16,706 nucleotides of DNA from positions 1-16,706 of the forward strand of contig JAHQWL010000087.1 of the NCBI GenBank assembly GCA_029856155.1, in the 5' to 3' direction. The notes under the pieces were generated by a model, which was not told where the DNA came from, searched no databases, and was given only the letters and a program-made list of their open reading frames with translations. The stretch comes from Promethearchaeia archaeon. GTDB lineage: Archaea > Asgardarchaeota > Lokiarchaeia > Sigyniarchaeales > SOKP01. Below, piece by piece: positions 2,554 through 12,482 of this stretch. The position numbers were made by a program, and so were the translations under genes. Numbering within the stretch: position 1 is the stretch's first letter; the number at the start of each line of letters is the position of its first letter.

Positions 2554-3384
2554 GTGGCGAAAAAGAAAAAGAAAGAAAAGAAAAAAAAGATTCAAGAGAT
2601 AAAAGAGGATAACGATCAGATACCCGAATATTCACTAGATTCGGCACTACATTCCGCAAAGACCACGGAAACAACATTACAGACTTTATTGAAGGGAGTT
2701 TCGGAAGGACAGGGATTTATTCATCCAAAAAAGGAAAATGACGTAAAAATCACACCTCAATTAACACATGAATCACGAGGTAAAATAGCTGAAGCGTATG
2801 TAATGGAGGATATTCCGTTAGCTCAAAGAGCCCGAGAGAAGGAAAGACCAGAAGTATTAGAGCAGAAAAGTCAAATTAAAGCTGCTACGCCACCATCACC
2901 TCAATCTTTACCTGAATCAGCAGCTAAAACTCTAACCAAGAAAGAAGAAGTACCGCCACCCAAAGAAGAATCAGTACCCATTCCTTCTACTAAAAAAGAA
3001 CCTTCATTTATTAAAAAGGAGAGTATTTATCTAAAATTAACAGAGTTTTTCGAAGGTTTACTAACAAGTTATAGTGAGAGTTATGATAGATGGGAGATGT
3101 CAATTTCTAGTATACTTGGTATCTTGAGGAAAATGAGGAAAATTACTAAGAAGAATACGGATGACTTAACAAACAGTATTTCAAATATATTTAAAAAGAT
3201 AGAAGCGGATTTGGAGCAATTTAAAGTTAAGCGAGACGAAATTGAGAAAGTTGCCGAAGTTGATATTGAGTCAATGTCAGGCGAATTTAAGCGTGTATTA
3301 GGGTTACTTGAATTACAGGTTAAGGAATATCAATTAAAACGGGTTACAGATGAATTTATCCATGACTTAAAATATCTACCATAG
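2554..3384 (+). CDS. Hypothetical protein: poly-Lys N-terminus, disordered Pro/Glu/Lys middle, long helical/coiled-coil C-terminal domain
   Basis: 276 aa ORF with a GTG start and AAGGT just upstream. It contains AKKKKKEKKKK and ATPPSPQSLP...EEVPPPKEE, followed by about 120 aa of amphipathic helices. No family recognised. Confidence 0.8.
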   Translation: MAKKKKKEKKKKIQEIKEDNDQIPEYSLDSALHSAKTTETTLQTLLKGVSEGQGFIHPKKENDVKITPQLTHESRGKIAEAYVMEDIPLAQRAREKERPEVLEQKSQIKAATPPSPQSLPESAAKTLTKKEEVPPPKEESVPIPSTKKEPSFIKKESIYLKLTEFFEGLLTSYSESYDRWEMSISSILGILRKMRKITKKNTDDLTNSISNIFKKIEADLEQFKVKRDEIEKVAEVDIESMSGEFKRVLGLLELQVKEYQLKRVTDEFIHDLKYLP

Positions 3385-3432: not shown

Positions 3433-4629
3433 ATGTCATCTGAAGAAAAAAGTCAGGTACGTCCACTTATTATTGATAATGGAAGTCAAAATTTTCGATT
3501 AGGGTGGGCGGGAGATGATTTCCCAGATATCATTGCTCCAAGTATTTATGTTAATAATTCGGATTATATATTTACTTCAGATGCAATTGATGGTCTTGAT
3601 GATATCTTTATTACAGAAAAAGAAGCTGAAAGCCATTTATTTGGACATGAAGCTTTAAAGTACTCGAATATACTCAAAATTCATGAATTTAAAAAAGAGG
3701 GTAATCTCAATATTTTCATGAAATACTTCTATCATCATTATAAACAATTAGAGATCGCTGAGGAACATCACTTTAAACAACCGATTATTATAATAACACC
3801 TTTTTATATGTCCGAATTGGAAAAAACTAAATTGCAGGATATCTTTTTTAATGTTTTTGATTTTCCGTCTCTATTATTTTTATCTGAAAATCAAGGAGTT
3901 TTAGCTACATTACAAAAAACTAGTGGCGTAGTTATAAATATGGGTGAAGTCAACACAAACATCACATCCTTTTTACATGGATTTTCAAATGTAATGGCTA
4001 GAGATATTTATCCGATTTCTGGTAAGGAATTAACAAGGCATCTTTTGAATTTGATTTTAATGAAAAAAAGTTCTGGAGAATTGGTTTATCTTGATAAAAT
4101 AATAGCACAGGAAATCAAAAATAAACTATCCTTATGCATTTTAGATCCAGATGGAGAAGTAAAAAGAATTAAAGATGGTTTTACTAAATATAACAGAACT
4201 ATTGATTTACCAGACGGAACCTCTTTAGATATTAATTCAGAAAGATTCTTATTTGTTGAACCAATGTTTGATCCTTCGCTAATTCATATTGATTATATGG
4301 GATTACCGGAGGCCGTATCAAAAGTGATTAGGTTTTGGGATCGTGAAAACTGGGAAGACTTATTACCGAATATCATCATCGTTGGGGGTAGCAGTTTAAT
4401 TCCGGGATTAGATCAAAGGTTGAAATTTGAAATATCAAAATATTTTTCAGAGAGAATACGGGATAAAATTAATGTGATTGCTGTTTCTGGAAGAGAAAAT
4501 ATTGGTTGGATCGGATCTTCAGTATTATATGCACAGGGAAAATTAAAACAAAAACAAGAATGGATTCAGAATCCCAGCCATCAGTCTTCTGAACAAGATC
4601 GAGAAAAGGAAAACTTAAATCAAAATTAA
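3433..4629 (+). CDS. Divergent actin-related protein (Asgard actin/Arp family)
   Basis: Eukaryote-type actin motifs are present in order: PLIIDNGS..RLGWAGDDFP...PS, FGHEAL, PIIIITP, IFFNVFDFP, TSGVVINMG, ISGKELTRHL, EIKNKL, LPDGTSLDINSERF..VEPMFDPSLI, NIIIVGGSSLIPGLDQRL, WIGSSVL. Length is 398 aa. Confidence 0.95.
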   Translation: MSSEEKSQVRPLIIDNGSQNFRLGWAGDDFPDIIAPSIYVNNSDYIFTSDAIDGLDDIFITEKEAESHLFGHEALKYSNILKIHEFKKEGNLNIFMKYFYHHYKQLEIAEEHHFKQPIIIITPFYMSELEKTKLQDIFFNVFDFPSLLFLSENQGVLATLQKTSGVVINMGEVNTNITSFLHGFSNVMARDIYPISGKELTRHLLNLILMKKSSGELVYLDKIIAQEIKNKLSLCILDPDGEVKRIKDGFTKYNRTIDLPDGTSLDINSERFLFVEPMFDPSLIHIDYMGLPEAVSKVIRFWDRENWEDLLPNIIIVGGSSLIPGLDQRLKFEISKYFSERIRDKINVIAVSGRENIGWIGSSVLYAQGKLKQKQEWIQNPSHQSSEQDREKENLNQN

Positions 4630-4657
4630 AATAAAGAACAATAAGGTGCGAATTCTC

Positions 4658-7255
4658 ATGTCCGTTAGCATTGATTTAAAACAACAATTTTTAACAAATT
4701 TTCAAAATAAAATTATAACTGCTCGGAAATTGCTATATGCTGCAAATCATAAATGGGCATCTAAATTACTTGAAAATTTGAGTTATGAAATTGAAAAGAA
4801 TGAGTGGTTAGATGCCCAGAAGAAGCACCAATTAATTATGATTATTTCCAATTCTTGGTTTATTTATCTAAATTCATTGAGAAGGAAAGGTGAAGAAGGA
4901 AAGGTTGAAATCAATTTAATCCGATATATTGATGCTTACAACAGGTTTTTTTCATTTTTATCAAAATTAGATGACTTCTATTTATTTAACAATTTTTGTA
5001 TAAATCTACTTCAAGAATTCATTAAAAAGGAAGAATTATCGCAAAAAGGGATAACTAAATTTATAAATTCCTTTTCAGTAAAGCTACATGAGAGAGGGGA
5101 TTACCAAAAACTATTTGAATTACAAATATTACAAATCTTTTTAAGAAAATCCGTTGCACCATCAGAATATTTCAATTTAAGTATGGAAAGATTGGGGAAA
5201 ACTCTCTTTAATTTGGAACCGAGCAAACGATCGTTATTTCTCTATATCTTATTAGAGAGTGTTTCTTTAAAGTACAAATTAATGGATGATTCCGCTGAGT
5301 TTGTAAGATCTATCAACACAATATTAGTAAATCGACTTCCTGGTTATTTAAAAAACGAATTTAGTAATATAAGCAGAATTGCTATTAATGAAAGAAGTTT
5401 TAACACGATTTTAGTTGATCTTGAAGAGCTTATTTATTATTTAAATGATATTGGGGAATATTCTTGGATTATTATTTTTATTCGTGTTATTTTCTCTAAA
5501 ATACAAGAATACCAATCATATGGTGATGCAGTCACATATATACGAAAATTCATTGATTTTTCAATAAACAGAAATCGTTTTGAAATTGCATTCGAGATTT
5601 ACGATTTCTTAGAAGATTTGTTCATGTATAAATCTGATTTATCTTATGATAATAGTTTGATTGAATTATGGGTGGAAGCCTGTAAGAAATTTGTAGATAT
5701 GAAGGAAAAAAAGTATCTCCTCCAATCCTTAGAAAAATTAAACACCCATCTAAAATTACCCAAAACTAATGCTCAAATTTTCCATTATTTTTATACATGC
5801 AATATATTATGGCAATTTAAATCGATGTTTTTTTCTTTAGAACAGCGGGATTTTTGGAGAATGATGTTCTATCGAGCTTTATTTGAAGAAAAAAATTTTA
5901 CCCTCGCAGAAAAAATAATTCCCTATTTAGATAAAGAATTTAATAAATGTTTAACAGATCTCGTAGCATTATATAATGAGGTTGAACCATTAAAAAAAAA
6001 AAGTTACTTATTTATTGATCATAATGAAACTCTACCTTCAGTTCATGAAGACTTTAGTATTAAACAGATAATATTGAGAATCGATTCTATAGGAATGATT
6101 TCTTATAGAATGATTTCTGTTGACGACAAGATAATTGAAGGATTTATTTCTAATGAATATTGGAATGATAGTCAACTAATTGAAATATATAATGAACTTT
6201 TCTATGAATCTGAAGATCGGAAATATCTTTTCAATCTGAAAGAATTTGGTGAATTATTATACATATTTCTACCAAAATTAATTCGAGATTTCTTTAAATC
6301 GTTTAAGATCGAAAGCTTGAATCTAATACCTCAAATATATTTTATCTTAAACAACATGACTATTCCTTTTGATCTCATATACGATAATAATTTTTTCTTA
6401 TTGAAATATTCCGGTGGTTATAGTGTGGGGGGTGAACCCCCACTTGGTGGTGTCGTTTTTGAAGAATATTATCCTGAGGATTCTTCGGAGGGACTATCTA
6501 GTAAGAAGTACAATATATTAGTTATTGAATCGATTAACTCTAATACTCCTTTAAAATGGAATGAAAAAACAAAACAGAAAGAACTAATTTTCCCTTTTCA
6601 AGCTGGTGCAGATGAATTAAATTATCTCGTTAATTTCTTTAATAATAGGGGGGAAGTAAAACAAATGACCACATTAATAGGATCCAATTCCACACAAGAA
6701 AATATTTTATCACATTTATCTAAAAATATATACCACATTATTGTATTCGTAGGAAATATTTTTTACTCCAAATGGTGCCCTAAGAACAGTTTTTTCCTTA
6801 CAAATGATAATAATATAATCACATTTAATGAAATTAATAAGATTTTAGATAAGAATGGATCGAAGAACCAACCGTTTATATTTTTTAATTCTCAAGTGTA
6901 TGATATCGAAGGGAAGAGGCTAAGAAATACTCTCAGGAATTTTGGTGAAATTGTGGCTCAATTTGATTATAATAAAATTACTGGTATCGTTTCAAAAAAT
7001 TATCCAATTTTTAATGATGAAACAAAGCTAATTATTTCAAATTTCTTTATAAACTTCTTCACTAAAAATAGTCAAGGGGTTTCGCTTCTGAAGGCACGTC
7101 AGCAATCTATAGCAAGTAAGATGGAAAAACTTATTGAAGAACAAGTTAAAGATTCAACTTCGGAAATTAGTACTACACATATAGACTTACGAAGTAGTTT
7201 AGCCATTTCAAGCTATTTACTTTTTGGAAAGCCGTGGAAAAAGATCTGGTCTTGA
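4658..7255 (+). CDS. Helical-repeat (TPR-like) protein with C-terminal CHAT (caspase-like) domain, predicted catalytically inactive
   Basis: CHAT scaffold motifs: LKEFGELLY.FLPKLIR, IPFDLIYD..FFLLKY, GADELNYL, STQENIL..L....YHIIVFVGNI, PFIFFNSQ, F..NFF...SQGVSLLKARQ, SSYLLFGKP. The N-terminal ~450 aa look all-helical. The start is set to the ATG at 4658 because the annotated GTG (4646) lies inside an AGGTG RBS-like motif. Confidence 0.8.
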   Translation: MSVSIDLKQQFLTNFQNKIITARKLLYAANHKWASKLLENLSYEIEKNEWLDAQKKHQLIMIISNSWFIYLNSLRRKGEEGKVEINLIRYIDAYNRFFSFLSKLDDFYLFNNFCINLLQEFIKKEELSQKGITKFINSFSVKLHERGDYQKLFELQILQIFLRKSVAPSEYFNLSMERLGKTLFNLEPSKRSLFLYILLESVSLKYKLMDDSAEFVRSINTILVNRLPGYLKNEFSNISRIAINERSFNTILVDLEELIYYLNDIGEYSWIIIFIRVIFSKIQEYQSYGDAVTYIRKFIDFSINRNRFEIAFEIYDFLEDLFMYKSDLSYDNSLIELWVEACKKFVDMKEKKYLLQSLEKLNTHLKLPKTNAQIFHYFYTCNILWQFKSMFFSLEQRDFWRMMFYRALFEEKNFTLAEKIIPYLDKEFNKCLTDLVALYNEVEPLKKKSYLFIDHNETLPSVHEDFSIKQIILRIDSIGMISYRMISVDDKIIEGFISNEYWNDSQLIEIYNELFYESEDRKYLFNLKEFGELLYIFLPKLIRDFFKSFKIESLNLIPQIYFILNNMTIPFDLIYDNNFFLLKYSGGYSVGGEPPLGGVVFEEYYPEDSSEGLSSKKYNILVIESINSNTPLKWNEKTKQKELIFPFQAGADELNYLVNFFNNRGEVKQMTTLIGSNSTQENILSHLSKNIYHIIVFVGNIFYSKWCPKNSFFLTNDNNIITFNEINKILDKNGSKNQPFIFFNSQVYDIEGKRLRNTLRNFGEIVAQFDYNKITGIVSKNYPIFNDETKLIISNFFINFFTKNSQGVSLLKARQQSIASKMEKLIEEQVKDSTSEISTTHIDLRSSLAISSYLLFGKPWKKIWS

Positions 7256-7344: not shown

Positions 7345-7887
7345 TTGGTGTTTATAATTTCGGATCGTCTAATAGAATTACGTGTAGAAAACAAACGCTT
7401 GAAAGAACAAATCTCTAATTTAGAAAATAAGATATTATCATTAGTAGGAATGGTAGAAATAGAATCTAGTGGGGGAGAAAAGAAAAATGTGCTTAATGAT
7501 TCTTTGATAAATTTAATAAATTCAACTACAGACCAATTGAATGTGGTAGCTCCTCACATTGACAGTTTTTATGCTAAAGAACTCAAAAGAACAGTTGACC
7601 GAGGGATTCCAGTTCTTCTAATCACTAATGATAGAAGTATTATCCCAGAAAGTTTTATTTCGATTTATGATGATTTAAAAAATATTCAAGGGATAAGTAT
7701 TATAAATAATCCTAATGTAAAATTTCTATTAGTTTTTAATACGGAACAAGCAATTTATTCGGGAGGATCTTTGGATAGAGAAGAATTATCAAAATCAATT
7801 TTAATAGTTACAAAAATTCAGGAAAAATCAAAATTAAGATTTATTGCAGAGATATTTTCATTAATGTTGCCGACGTTTATGAGATGA
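7345..7887 (+). CDS. N-terminal coiled coil + phospholipase D-fold (PLDc_2/TrmB-like) domain lacking HKD
   Basis: Coiled coil LIELRVENKRLKEQISNLENKI. PLD-fold pattern LINLINSTTDQLNVVAP....ELKRTVDRGIPVLLITND....NNPNVKFLLVFNTEQAIYSGGSL. There is no His in the catalytic segment. The start codon is uncertain. Confidence 0.7.
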   Translation: MVFIISDRLIELRVENKRLKEQISNLENKILSLVGMVEIESSGGEKKNVLNDSLINLINSTTDQLNVVAPHIDSFYAKELKRTVDRGIPVLLITNDRSIIPESFISIYDDLKNIQGISIINNPNVKFLLVFNTEQAIYSGGSLDREELSKSILIVTKIQEKSKLRFIAEIFSLMLPTFMR

Positions 7888-11867: not shown

Positions 11868-12482
11868 ATGCCAAGTCGTCGGGGAGATGGGACCCTTGTA
11901 TTTAAAATTTGTTTTTACGGCCCTTCGCTTGGAGGAAAAACAACAGCTCTCGACTGGGTTTATAAAAAGGAGGGTCTAGCAACAGGAGATATGCAACAAA
12001 TACAAGATCCAACGGGTAGAACGTTATTTTTTGATCGAGTTGTAGCACGGGTTTCAAATGTCGTATTTCAAGTATATACAGTAGCAGGTCAACGTCGTCA
12101 TAAATTTCAACGTCAAACAGTCCTAAAGGGTACAGATGCAGTAATTTTTACATGGGATTCTTTAATCGATCAATGGGGTGAAAACATTTGGAGTTTAAAG
12201 GAGTTACTCCGATTTTATGGTGATAAACTAATACCACTTGCAGCCTTTGATCCTCCTGAAGTACCCACTGTTGTACTCGCAAATAAACGAGATCTAGAGG
12301 ATATTGTAGAAATAGCTAAAATACGTCAAGCTCTCGACACTGCGAAACTAAATCATGTACTTGTTTACGAAACAATAGCTATCCAAGGAATAAATGTTAA
12401 GAGAGCTTTTGTATACGCGGCTCGGCAAGCAGTACTCAACCATTACAAGAAGCTTTCAGGAAAATCGATGGAAGCAGCTTAA
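11868..12482 (+). CDS. MglA-family small GTPase
   Basis: G1 FKICFYGPSLGGKTT, G2 RTLFFD, G3 YTVAGQ (MglA TVPGQ type rather than DxxG), LKGTDAVIF..DS, G4 NKRD, G5 ETIA..G.NV. A GAGG RBS lies upstream. Confidence 0.9.
   Translation: MPSRRGDGTLVFKICFYGPSLGGKTTALDWVYKKEGLATGDMQQIQDPTGRTLFFDRVVARVSNVVFQVYTVAGQRRHKFQRQTVLKGTDAVIFTWDSLIDQWGENIWSLKELLRFYGDKLIPLAAFDPPEVPTVVLANKRDLEDIVEIAKIRQALDTAKLNHVLVYETIAIQGINVKRAFVYAARQAVLNHYKKLSGKSMEAA

What the first reader, a model, noticed from the sequence alone, without database searches (positions are those of the whole stretch)
3433..4629. Actin-related protein with rewired ATPase and polymerisation determinants
Manual alignment to conventional actin gives the following. 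Phosphate-1 DNGSGLVK becomes DNGSQNFR (G15Q, K18R). Phosphate-2 DSGDGVTH becomes NMGEVNTN (D154N, G158V, H161N; residues 169-176, from nt 3937). The catalytic Q137 position is Glu152, as in MreB/ParM-type proteins. The methyl-His73 motif PIEHG becomes FKKEG. The D-loop region is about 12 aa longer and acidic (SDAIDGLDDIFITEKE). The C-terminal EYDE..PSIVHRKCF is replaced by a polar tail. Inference: this is not the filament-forming Lokiactin but an Arp-like paralog, probably with weak or altered ATPase activity and different partners.
Basis: partly seen in the sequence, partly recalled or inferred. Interest (0 to 1): 0.72.

Follow-up and report, generated by a model that had tools for sequence, protein, structure and literature searches.

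The report
Divergent Asgard actin paralog, pseudo-caspase partner
This gene encodes a fast-evolving actin-like protein of one Asgard archaeal lineage that has lost actin's catalytic residues and is always encoded next to, and predicted to dock through its enlarged D-loop onto, a large caspase-like protein that has also lost its catalytic residues, so it looks like a complex subunit rather than a filament-forming actin.

Summary
It carries the stated changes at the phosphate-1 and phosphate-2 loops, H73, the D-loop and the C-terminus. Q137→Glu152 depends on alignment register, but MAFFT and the model's helix start support it.

It is not Lokiactin. The genome has two canonical Lokiactins plus two other paralogs. 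An AU test rejects grouping this family with Lokiactin/actin (p=3e-5), and it evolves about ten times faster.

Orthologs (47-94% identity) occur in 61 of 68 sampled genomes of one GTDB family and in no other Asgard family sampled. Across the family, the G15, G158 and H161 positions are never Gly/His, and D154 is N or S. The adenosine-pocket residues stay invariant.

New here: the gene sits in a conserved four-gene module of a ~270-aa helical protein, the ARP, a ~865-aa CHAT-like protein lacking the His/Cys dyad, and a ~170-aa HKD-less PLD-like protein. The module persists in sister lineages at ~30% identity, and ARP and the CHAT-like gene co-occur and are co-absent. Complex prediction supports ARP binding to the CHAT-like protein through the D-loop insert (score 0.62, best control 0.00).

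First-stage readers of this scan flagged the same family in other genomes.

The parts
3433..4629 (+). Divergent actin-related protein (ARP), 398 aa (P0001)
   Evidence: ORF. Pfam Actin 153.7 bits. AF2 model pLDDT 88.6, pTM 0.85. Nearest structure is actin, Z 39.2, rmsd 2.2 A, 339 aa, 26% identity.
3475..3498 (+). Phosphate-1 loop, residues 15-22 (DNGSQNFR)
   Evidence: The G15 position is never Gly in 118 family members (N/K/Q/R/D/H). K18->R in 117/118. The G13 equivalent is invariant.
3565..3615 (+). Enlarged D-loop insert, residues 45-61; predicted docking element for the BIG protein
   Evidence: 10-aa insertion relative to the genome's Lokiactin. D44, F47, S49, I52, G54 and L55 are invariant in 60/60. 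It forms the core of the predicted ARP-BIG interface.
3688..3702 (+). H73-equivalent region, residues 86-90 (FKKEG); no His
   Evidence: Alignments. A 3-residue deletion here is shared with the sister groups.
3886..3894 (+). Glu152-Asn153-Gln154: the Q137-equivalent site at the start of the hinge helix
   Evidence: Position 152 is E in 92 and D in 26 of 118 members. Q154 is kept in 116/118. The helix starts at 152 in both AF2 models.
3937..3960 (+). Phosphate-2 loop, residues 169-176 (NMGEVNTN)
   Evidence: D154 position: N81, S29, D1. G156 is invariant. D157->E in 113. The G158 position is never Gly. The H161 position is never His.
4117..4122 (+). K229-N230 (actin K213-E214), ribose/adenosine pocket
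   Evidence: K229 is invariant in all 95 rows of the diverse alignment. Position 230 is E/D in 111/118; Asn here is atypical.
4384..4395 (+). GGSS, residues 318-321 (actin G301-G302-T-T), adenosine motif
   Evidence: The two Gly are invariant in 118/118.
4567..4626 (+). Polar, non-conserved C-terminal tail replacing the actin ...HRCF end
   Evidence: pLDDT falls over the last ~20 residues.
2554..3384 (+). Module gene X, 276 aa: polybasic N-terminus, variable Pro-rich linker, conserved ~115-aa C-terminal helical domain
   Evidence: No Pfam, Atlas or PADLOC match. Always immediately upstream of the ARP, including in sister lineages. C-terminal domain conserved.
4646..7255 (+). Module gene BIG, 869 aa: N-terminal helical region plus C-terminal CHAT/caspase-like domain without the His/Cys dyad (Asn704 at nt 6755-6757; Gln750 at nt 6893-6895)
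   Evidence: CHAT hit in 6/6 orthologs, best E 1.5e-6. Atlas features match CHAT/separase clusters. Asn704 is invariant in 50/50; the Cys position is Q/V/R. Starts 16 bp after the ARP stop, and from +21 to -8 bp in the other loci examined.
7345..7887 (+). Module gene SM, 180 aa: N-terminal coiled coil plus PLD-like domain with N-x-K in place of H-x-K
   Evidence: Weak PLDc_2 hit, E 0.008. Conserved at 36-42% identity in sister lineages.

Best explanation
The gene encodes a lineage-restricted, fast-evolving actin-fold paralog that is not the cell's filament-forming actin. It keeps the actin fold and the adenosine/ribose pocket. Its hydrolytic centre has been dismantled: D154->N/S, H161 lost, both phosphate-loop glycines (G15, G158) lost, and Q137->Glu/Asp. 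It therefore most likely binds nucleotide but hydrolyses it slowly or by a different route (inferred).

It works as a stoichiometric subunit of a conserved four-protein module: a polybasic/helical protein X, the ARP, a ~865-aa helical plus CHAT-like pseudo-protease (BIG), and a small HKD-less PLD-like protein (SM). The gene linkage, co-inheritance and co-absence of ARP and BIG are shown.

The predicted mode of assembly is that the ARP's enlarged, almost invariant D-loop insert (residues 45-61) and neighbouring subdomain-2 residues dock onto the first ~150 residues of BIG's helical domain. In F-actin the D-loop makes the longitudinal filament contact, so this docking would preclude canonical polymerisation. 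This part is predicted, not shown.

Functionally it would then resemble eukaryotic ARPs that serve as non-polymerising, nucleotide-holding structural or regulatory subunits of large complexes, but it arose independently.
For: Identity and fold: Pfam Actin 153.7 bits. AF2 pLDDT 88.6. Actin is the nearest structure at Z 39.2, ahead of Arps at 29-36, crenactin at 31 and MreB/ParM at 18-26.

Not Lokiactin: there are five actin-family genes in the genome, two of them canonical. The family is a separate clade with 100% support. The AU test gives p=3.3e-5. Lokiactin is 96-100% identical where this ARP is 93, 64, 63 and 47% identical in the same genome pairs.

Fixed rewiring with a retained pocket: residue counts over 118 homologs. 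K229, G318 and G24 are invariant even in the 95-row diverse alignment.

Purifying selection: intact orthologs at 47-94% identity in 61/68 genomes of GTDB family f1.

Module: the X-ARP-BIG-SM order is conserved in f1, in consecutive locus tags of many MAGs, and in four sister lineages whose ARPs are only ~25-33% identical. ARP-to-BIG spacing ranges from +21 to -8 bp.

Co-occurrence: BIG is found in 63/68 f1 genomes. The five genomes without BIG also lack the ARP. The other two ARP 'absences' have BIG cut at a contig edge. BIG is found in none of 26 other families.

BIG is a pseudo-CHAT.

Complex prediction (ARP 8-392, X 150-276, BIG 1-480, ARP scored): score 0.62, best of 3 controls 0.00. That mark was reached by 58 of 80 solved complexes and 2 of 110 mismatched pairs. 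These counts hold only roughly here, because my own alignments were used and three chains were folded. The runs agree in at least 2% of their contacts, and the partner's pLDDT is at least 75. Replacing BIG abolished the score.

The predicted ARP interface residues are more conserved than the rest of the protein within the family (0.883 vs 0.797, permutation p=0.003).
Against: There are no biochemical or expression data.

The predicted interface appeared in 2 of 3 runs only. The other chains' pLDDT was only ~61, and contact agreement across all runs was low.

Across the deep sister groups, the ARP interface residues are not more conserved than the rest (p=0.73). For BIG the enrichment is marginal (p about 0.04).

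The Q137-equivalent is invariably acidic (E/D), as in hydrolytically active ParM, MreB and Hsp70 (established knowledge). Gly156, Glu172 (D157), Asn174 and Thr175 are conserved. ATP hydrolysis by an alternative geometry is therefore possible.

The 'hydrophobic plug' region (I284-Y288) and other surfaces are also highly conserved. They could serve self-assembly rather than hetero-complex formation.

No coordinates were available to check the pocket geometry.
Confidence: 0.6

Rival explanations
1. It is still a cytomotive filament former. On this view it is a specialised, ParM/MreB-style actin with a Glu catalytic residue that polymerises on its own, and X, BIG and SM act as adaptors, nucleators or cargo, analogous to ParM-ParR or MamK systems.
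For: An acidic residue occupies the Q137 position in 118/118 members, as in active bacterial actins (established knowledge of ParM/MreB). The G156, D157->E, K18->R and adenosine-pocket residues are conserved. The plug-equivalent segment I284-Y288 and the D-loop insert are near-invariant, as filament contacts would be. The operon-like arrangement with partner genes resembles plasmid and organelle actin systems.
Against: Both phosphate-loop glycines, D154 and H161 are lost family-wide. The barbed-end cleft and C-terminus are remodelled (Y143->A/S/T, L349->Q, no ...HRCF). The D-loop insert is predicted to be buried against BIG. Structurally the protein is much closer to actin and Arps than to ParM/MreB. 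Self-assembly was not tested.
Confidence: 0.25
2. The module is a defence or mobile-element system. CHAT proteases, PLD nucleases, a type IIG-like methyltransferase and helicases are typical of defence islands, and the ARP would be a sensor or scaffold component of it.
For: The f1 neighbourhood includes a type IIG REase/MTase-like protein (PADLOC 1.2e-36) and a DEAD helicase. CHAT and PLD folds are common in defence systems (established knowledge).
Against: None of ARP, X, BIG or SM matches any PADLOC model. The CHAT dyad and the PLD His are absent in all lineages. The module is near-universal (61-63 of 68 genomes), single-copy and syntenic, and it diverges in step with the taxonomy (47-48% identity in genus g3, 54-63% in g2 and g4-g9, 64-93% in g1). 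That pattern indicates vertical inheritance, unlike patchy defence islands. The MTase and helicase are not linked in the sister lineages.
Confidence: 0.08
3. It is a decaying or functionless duplicate whose motif changes simply reflect relaxed selection.
For: It evolves about ten times faster than Lokiactin. Several catalytic-site positions (19, 173, 176) vary freely.
Against: The ORFs are intact, with 59 invariant and more than 100 near-invariant columns across 60 diverse members. The family persists in 61/68 genomes and in sister lineages at ~30% identity with the same indels. The AF2 fold is confident.
Confidence: 0.02

Closest known systems
Lokiactin / eukaryotic actin
   Same: Same four-subdomain fold (Z 39.2, rmsd 2.2 A over 339 residues; Foldseek TM 0.78-0.88). 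Same Pfam family. The adenosine-pocket residues (K213, G301-G302) and the G13/G156 loop glycines are retained.
   Different: Only 25-28% identity. Q137, D154, H161, G15, G158 and H73 are all changed. The D-loop is 10-12 aa longer. The C-terminus is replaced. It evolves ~10x faster and is restricted to one GTDB family. The AU test rejects a shared clade.
Other uncharacterised Asgard actin paralogs ('asgardactin' clades; the three non-Lokiactin homologues of Ca. L. ossiferum)
   Same: It is another divergent Asgard actin-family paralog alongside Lokiactin. The existence of several such clades is published (PMC9834061, PMC8850707, PMC4917890).
   Different: No ortholog was found outside family f1. 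This includes the same-order family f2, whose 4.4-Mb single-contig genome G213 may correspond to the cultured strain MK-D1 (this correspondence is my guess). In the literature searched, no paper links an Asgard ARP to a CHAT-like partner or describes its catalytic-site pattern.
Eukaryotic nuclear ARPs (Arp4, Arp7/9, Arp8, Arp5, Arp6)
   Same: Actin-fold proteins with altered nucleotide sites and subdomain-2 insertions that do not polymerise and act as subunits docked on helical elements of large complexes (established knowledge). Structural similarity is Z 29-33.
   Different: No specific orthology: 17-22% identity and lower Z than actin. The partner is a pseudo-CHAT protein, not a Snf2-type ATPase HSA helix. 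The predicted contact uses the D-loop/pointed face rather than the barbed-end cleft.
ParM / MreB bacterial actins
   Same: An acidic residue (Glu/Asp) at the position of actin Q137. Encoded in an operon with partner proteins.
   Different: Much lower structural similarity (Z 18-26 against 39 for actin). The sequence is clearly of the actin/Arp branch.
TPR-CHAT / separase-type caspase-fold proteins (for the partner BIG)
   Same: A helical N-terminal region followed by a CHAT/caspase-like domain.
   Different: The catalytic His is replaced by an invariant Asn and the Cys by Q/V/R in all lineages. The Pfam score in this copy is below the gathering threshold (16.2 vs 24). A PDB profile search found nothing.

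Membership tests
Actin family (Pfam PF00022) | Profile HMM score above the curated gathering threshold over the full domain | tested here: met
   153.7 bits against a cut-off of 27; residues 8-373 match profile positions 3-389 of 410.
Actin family (Pfam PF00022) | Four-subdomain actin fold | tested here: met
   AF2 pLDDT 88.6, pTM 0.85. Actin Z 39.2, rmsd 2.2 A, 339 aligned. Foldseek E 4e-32, TM 0.78-0.88.
Lokiactin (conserved Asgard actin orthogroup) | High identity to actin and other Lokiactins, and the canonical C-terminus | tested here: not met
   25-28% identity to the genome's own Lokiactin, whereas Lokiactins of the same genomes are 96-100% identical to each other. The tail is a polar stretch, not ...HRCF.
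Lokiactin (conserved Asgard actin orthogroup) | Branches with Lokiactin/actin in a phylogeny | tested here: not met
   Separate 12-row clade, SH-aLRT 100. The AU test rejects the joint clade (delta lnL 208.8, p 3.3e-5). Caveat: quick tree with long branches.
Catalytically canonical actin ATPase | Q137, D154 and H161 plus the phosphate-loop glycines G15 and G158 | tested here: not met
   The positions read E/D, N/S, variable, non-Gly and non-Gly respectively across 118 homologs.
Nucleotide-binding ASKHA core | Conserved adenosine/ribose pocket and loop glycines (D11, G13, G156, K213, E214, G301-G302) | tested here: met
   D/E at 15, G17, G171, K229 and G318-G319 are invariant or nearly so. Position 230 is E/D in 111/118. 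Actual nucleotide binding is not testable with these tools.
Eukaryotic Arp classes Arp1-Arp10 | Specific orthology to one Arp class (closest similarity or clade membership) | tested here: inconclusive
   Every Arp representative scores below actin (Arp3 Z 35.9; Arp4, 5, 6, 7, 8 and 11 at Z 29-33; 17-22% identity). No named eukaryotic protein falls in the query's clade. The tree lacked curated Arp4-10 references.
ParM/MreB-type bacterial actins | Acidic catalytic residue at the Q137-equivalent position | tested here: met
   E152, with E92/D26 across the family. The register is supported by MAFFT and the helix start at 152. HMMER's register differs.
ParM/MreB-type bacterial actins | Closest overall similarity to ParM/MreB rather than actin | tested here: not met
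   MreB Z 25.9-26.4 and ParM Z 17-20, against actin at 39.2.
CHAT/caspase-like proteases (partner BIG) | CHAT domain profile match | tested here: inconclusive
   This copy scores 16.2 bits, below the 24-bit cut-off. All 6 orthologs scanned do match (best E 1.5e-6), and Atlas features point to CHAT/separase clusters. No fold model was made.
CHAT/caspase-like proteases (partner BIG) | Catalytic His-Cys dyad | tested here: not met
   The His position is Asn704, invariant in 50/50. The Cys position is Gln750 in f1 and V/R in sister lineages. The motif register was assigned by eye against the known CHAT pattern.
Known anti-phage defence systems (PADLOC) | Match of module proteins to any defence-system model | tested here: not met
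   No hit at E<=0.01 for ARP, X, BIG or SM. Only the outer MTase and helicase match generic models.

The most novel reading that the evidence does not exclude
Asgard archaea independently invented the 'ARP as complex subunit' principle. In this reading an actin paralog turned into a nucleotide-holding pseudo-ATPase, and its D-loop, the filament contact of actin, was repurposed as a docking peg for a pseudo-caspase scaffold. The result is a four-protein assembly built largely from catalytically dead enzyme folds (actin, CHAT, PLD), with a function so far unknown.
Probability: 0.4. Interest if true: 0.75.

Novelty: new variant of a known kind. Interest (0 to 1): 0.62.

Why it matters
Asgard actin paralogs other than Lokiactin are listed in several papers, but none has an assigned partner or mechanism. 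This work gives one such family a concrete, testable context: a defined lineage distribution, a fixed pattern of catalytic-site loss with a retained nucleotide pocket, an obligate genomic partnership with a pseudo-CHAT protein, and a specific predicted interface (D-loop insert against the first ~150 residues of BIG).

If confirmed, it would show that conversion of actin into a non-filament complex subunit, a hallmark of eukaryotic ARPs, also happened within archaea. It would also add a prokaryotic example of a multi-pseudoenzyme complex.

Because the family is confined to one lokiarchaeial-type family and order, it is a parallel innovation rather than an ancestor of eukaryotic Arps. That limits its bearing on eukaryogenesis.

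Tried and rejected
1. AF2 with a family-only alignment gave a poor model (pLDDT 54) and was replaced by a diverse alignment.
2. No model coordinates were exposed, so no explicit superposition or pocket geometry could be computed.
3. HMMER's Q154=Q137 register was considered and judged less likely than E152.
4. Anaeramoeba tandem double-actin proteins scored unusually high against the query (named) but do not cluster with it. They were rejected as specific relatives.
5. ARP-X binding: in the complex job, replacing BIG while keeping X gave a score of 0.00, so there was no support for an ARP-X interface. This is no evidence against binding.
6. A PDB profile search with the BIG C-terminal domain found nothing significant.
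7. An Atlas search with the X C-terminal domain gave no usable hit.
8. PADLOC gave no hit for the four module proteins.
9. Expression: no RNA holder was listed for window:2554-7887.
10. The 2015 Lokiarchaeum paper is not held. I could not check whether this family is among its actin homologs, although a BIG homolog (P0336) carries the LCGC14 tag that I take to be that study's Loki's Castle sediment metagenome.
11. The primer sequences for the three L. ossiferum ARPs translate to peptides that do not fit this family. This agrees with no ortholog being found outside f1 (by-eye check only).
12. Deep-lineage conservation of the predicted ARP interface showed no enrichment (p=0.73).
Full report
**Observation.** window:3433-4629(+) is an uninterrupted ATG-initiated ORF of 398 codons. 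It matches Pfam Actin over its whole length (153.7 bits against a cut-off of 27), and PDB actins at E about 1e-31 to 1e-35.

Alignment to the genome's own canonical Lokiactin and to PDB actins confirms these changes:
- G15->Q, K18->R, D154->N, G158->V and H161->N.
- No His at the H73 site.
- A D-loop region 10 aa longer than Lokiactin.
- A polar tail in place of the ...HRCF end.

The one contested point is Q137. HMMER's pairwise alignments place Gln154 opposite Q137 by opening two compensating gaps. Two MAFFT alignments are gapless and place Glu152 there. Both AF2 models put strand 146-151 directly before a helix starting at 152, which is the geometry of actin's strand 131-136 followed by the helix starting at Q137 (the actin secondary structure is from established knowledge). 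I therefore accept Glu152.

Two details are idiosyncrasies of this sequence. Its family reads D-I-G, not D-N-G, and has E/D rather than Asn at the E214 position.

**It is a paralog, not the cytoskeletal actin.** The 4.1-Mb genome carries five actin-family genes:
- Two near-canonical Lokiactins (441 and 433 bits).
- A 373-aa paralog (297 bits).
- A 504-aa paralog with a Cys-rich insert (206 bits).
- This gene, the most divergent (147 bits).

In a 91-row IQ-TREE (LG+C20, quick search), the family is a 100%-supported clade. It nests in a 12-row clade, also at 100%, that is split from the other 79 rows, which include Lokiactin and the other paralogs; rows of that partition that I looked up are eukaryotic actin-like proteins. 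Forcing the family together with Lokiactin and an actin costs 208.8 log-likelihood units (p-AU 3.3e-5).

In the same genome pairs, Lokiactin is 100, 98, 99 and 96% identical where this protein is 93, 64, 63 and 47% identical.

**Distribution.** The large protein database holds at least 120 clusters at 63-94% identity, all about 390-400 aa, from Asgard MAGs. Among 301 species-representative Asgard genomes, orthologs (at least 47% identity, E<=1e-120) occur in 61 of 68 genomes of the window's own GTDB family. They occur in none of the other 29 families, where the best hits are 27-32% cross-paralog matches.

An exhaustive search of 1.8 billion representatives found only 21 proteins at E<=1e-30. 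These are the family itself and a few sister groups (P0130, P0133, P0134, P0137, P0139, P0140, P0232). The sister groups share the hallmark indels: the long D-loop insert, the 3-residue deletion at the H73 loop, and the SWDR/SWER and GRE..W.GAS signatures.

**Active-site pattern.** Residue counts over 118 family members:

| Actin position | State in the family |
|---|---|
| G15 | Never Gly (N/K/Q/R/D/H) |
| K18 | Arg in 117 |
| D154 | N81, S29, D1 |
| G156 | Invariant |
| D157 | Glu in 113 |
| G158 | Never Gly |
| H161 | Never His |
| Q137 | E92, D26 |
| K213 and G301-G302 | Invariant |
| E214 | E/D in 111 |
| R335 | Invariant |

The adenosine and ribose pocket and the loop scaffolds are thus under strong constraint. 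The residues that position and activate the hydrolytic water in actin (established knowledge: Q137, D154, H161) are gone.

My inference is that nucleotide binding is retained and hydrolysis is slow or mechanistically different. The invariant acidic residue at the Q137 site, as in ParM/MreB/Hsp70, keeps an alternative catalytic route open. This is the main reason I do not claim a dead ATPase.

**Structure.** With a diverse 95-row alignment, AF2 gives pLDDT 88.6 and pTM 0.85. Only the N-terminus and the tip of the D-loop insert are uncertain.

Against 48,161 PDB representatives:

| Structure | Z | Identity |
|---|---|---|
| Actin (rmsd 2.2 A, 339 residues) | 39.2 | 26% |
| Arp3 | 35.9 | 19% |
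| Arp4, 5, 6, 7, 8, 11 | 29-33 | 17-22% |
| Crenactin | 31.2 | 15% |
| MreB | about 26 | 13-15% |
| ParM | 17-20 | 10-15% |

Foldseek agrees, with actins at TM 0.78-0.88. There is therefore no sign of orthology to a particular eukaryotic Arp. 'Arp-like' is a functional analogy.

**Genomic context: the main addition.** The gene lies in a co-oriented cluster. In family f1 the order is VWA protein, AbrB-ACT protein, X (~270 aa), ARP, BIG (~865 aa), SM (~170 aa), type IIG-like MTase, then DEAD helicase.

In four sister lineages whose ARPs are only ~25-33% identical, the outer genes differ but the X-ARP-BIG-SM core is retained. The ARP stop and the BIG start are 1 bp apart or overlap by 4 to 8 bp. 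Consecutive locus tags show the same adjacency in many independent MAGs.

The three partners are as follows.
- **BIG.** It has an N-terminal helical region and a C-terminal CHAT/caspase-like domain. CHAT matches in 6/6 orthologs (best E 1.5e-6), and Atlas features point to CHAT and separase clusters. At the two catalytic motifs it has an invariant Asn (50/50) instead of His, and Q/V/R instead of Cys.
- **SM.** It is a coiled coil plus a PLD-like domain with N-x-K where H-x-K is expected.
- **X.** It has a polybasic N-terminus, a variable linker and a conserved ~115-aa helical domain with no detectable relatives.

A BIG profile finds the gene in 63/68 f1 genomes and 2/7 genomes of the same-order family f2. 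In f2 genome G285 it is adjacent to the ARP-like hit. It is found in none of 26 other families. The five f1 genomes without BIG also lack the ARP; all are genus g4, and two are 99% complete. The two remaining ARP 'absences' have BIG truncated at a contig edge. No genome was seen with one gene clearly present and the other clearly absent.

**Physical association.** One complex job folded ARP 8-392, X 150-276 and BIG 1-480, with the ARP as the scored chain. The score was 0.62 and the best of 3 controls was 0.00. That mark was reached by 58 of 80 solved complexes and 2 of 110 mismatched pairs. The counts hold only roughly here, because my own alignments and three chains were used.

The runs agree in at least 2% of their contacts, and the partner's pLDDT is at least 75. 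Individual runs scored 0.62, 0.63 and 0.00, and the other chains' pLDDT was ~61. Replacing BIG abolished the score, so the confident interface is ARP-BIG. It involves ARP residues 42, 45-61, 76-77, 79-81, 219, 221 and 260-262, and BIG residues 22-41, 89-106 and 114-146.

The ARP side is essentially the family-specific D-loop insert, which is almost invariant within f1 (D44, F47, S49, I52, G54 and L55 in 60/60). Interface residues are more conserved than the rest of the ARP within f1 (p=0.003), and marginally so in BIG (p=0.04). They are not more conserved across the deep sister groups (p=0.73). I treat the interface as a good hypothesis and not a result.

**Literature.** Papers note that Loki-type genomes hold several actin homologs beyond Lokiactin:
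- 'Six actin homologs' (PMC4917890).
- Three ARP-clustering homologues in L. ossiferum, all expressed far below Lokiactin (PMC9834061).
- 'Asgardactins' in five clades (PMC8850707).

I found no paper that links an Asgard ARP to a CHAT-like partner. The existence of divergent Asgard ARPs is therefore known. This family's residue pattern, its lineage restriction and its module appear to be undescribed in the literature I could search.

First-stage readers of this scan flagged the same family and module in several other genomes. Those notes are unchecked. I tested the CHAT-dyad and synteny claims myself.

**Verdict.** The most likely role is a non-filament, nucleotide-holding subunit of a conserved multi-pseudoenzyme module. 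Its D-loop is predicted to dock onto the pseudo-CHAT protein. The main rival is a specialised filament system with these partners, at about 0.25.

Noticed in passing
L004:955-2469 (-) = G000 contig C52: A 504-aa actin paralog with a ~130-aa insertion carrying four CxxC pairs (two zinc-ribbon-like units) between the last strand and the final helices. It is conserved at 505-511 aa in other genomes of the family.
   Followed up: partly
P0131, P0132, P0136, P0172 (Anaeramoeba spp.; P0172 not named): Eukaryotic 740-895-aa proteins made of two tandem actin-like domains. They score unusually high against the query (up to 194 bits) but do not cluster with it in the tree.
   Followed up: partly
window:4646-7255 (+): BIG's would-be catalytic His is an Asn that is invariant in 50/50 homologs, including lineages at 18-24% identity. 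This suggests a selected new role for that site rather than simple loss.
   Followed up: partly
window:7345-7887 (+): The small PLD-like protein has N-V-K where PLD enzymes have H-x-K, plus a strongly conserved C-terminal ...MLP(T/S)FMR end. It is the third 'dead-enzyme' fold in the module.
   Followed up: partly
window:2096-2503 (+): A 135-aa protein with weak AbrB/MazE-like N-terminal and ACT-domain hits, a possible small-molecule-responsive regulator. It sits directly upstream of the module in family f1 only.
   Followed up: no
window:8044-11484 (+): A type IIG REase/MTase-like protein (731 aa; PADLOC 1.2e-36) and a DEAD-box helicase (382 aa) are syntenic with the module throughout f1 but not in the sister lineages. 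In sister loci L009 and L010 a Hef-like helicase-ERCC4 nuclease, a PHP protein, a histone-fold protein and Rpb6 lie nearby.
   Followed up: no
window:2-1828 (+) and 11868-12482 (+): A VWA-domain protein (about 700 aa in orthologs, cut by the window start) and an Arf/Ras-family small GTPase flank the cluster. A Roadblock/LC7 gene lies nearby in L007 and L008.
   Followed up: no
G204:C28:217173-218327 (-): In one genome the ARP match lies in a 1256-aa open frame interrupted by a single TAG. This suggests ARP and BIG are in the same frame there, separated by one stop codon.
   Followed up: no
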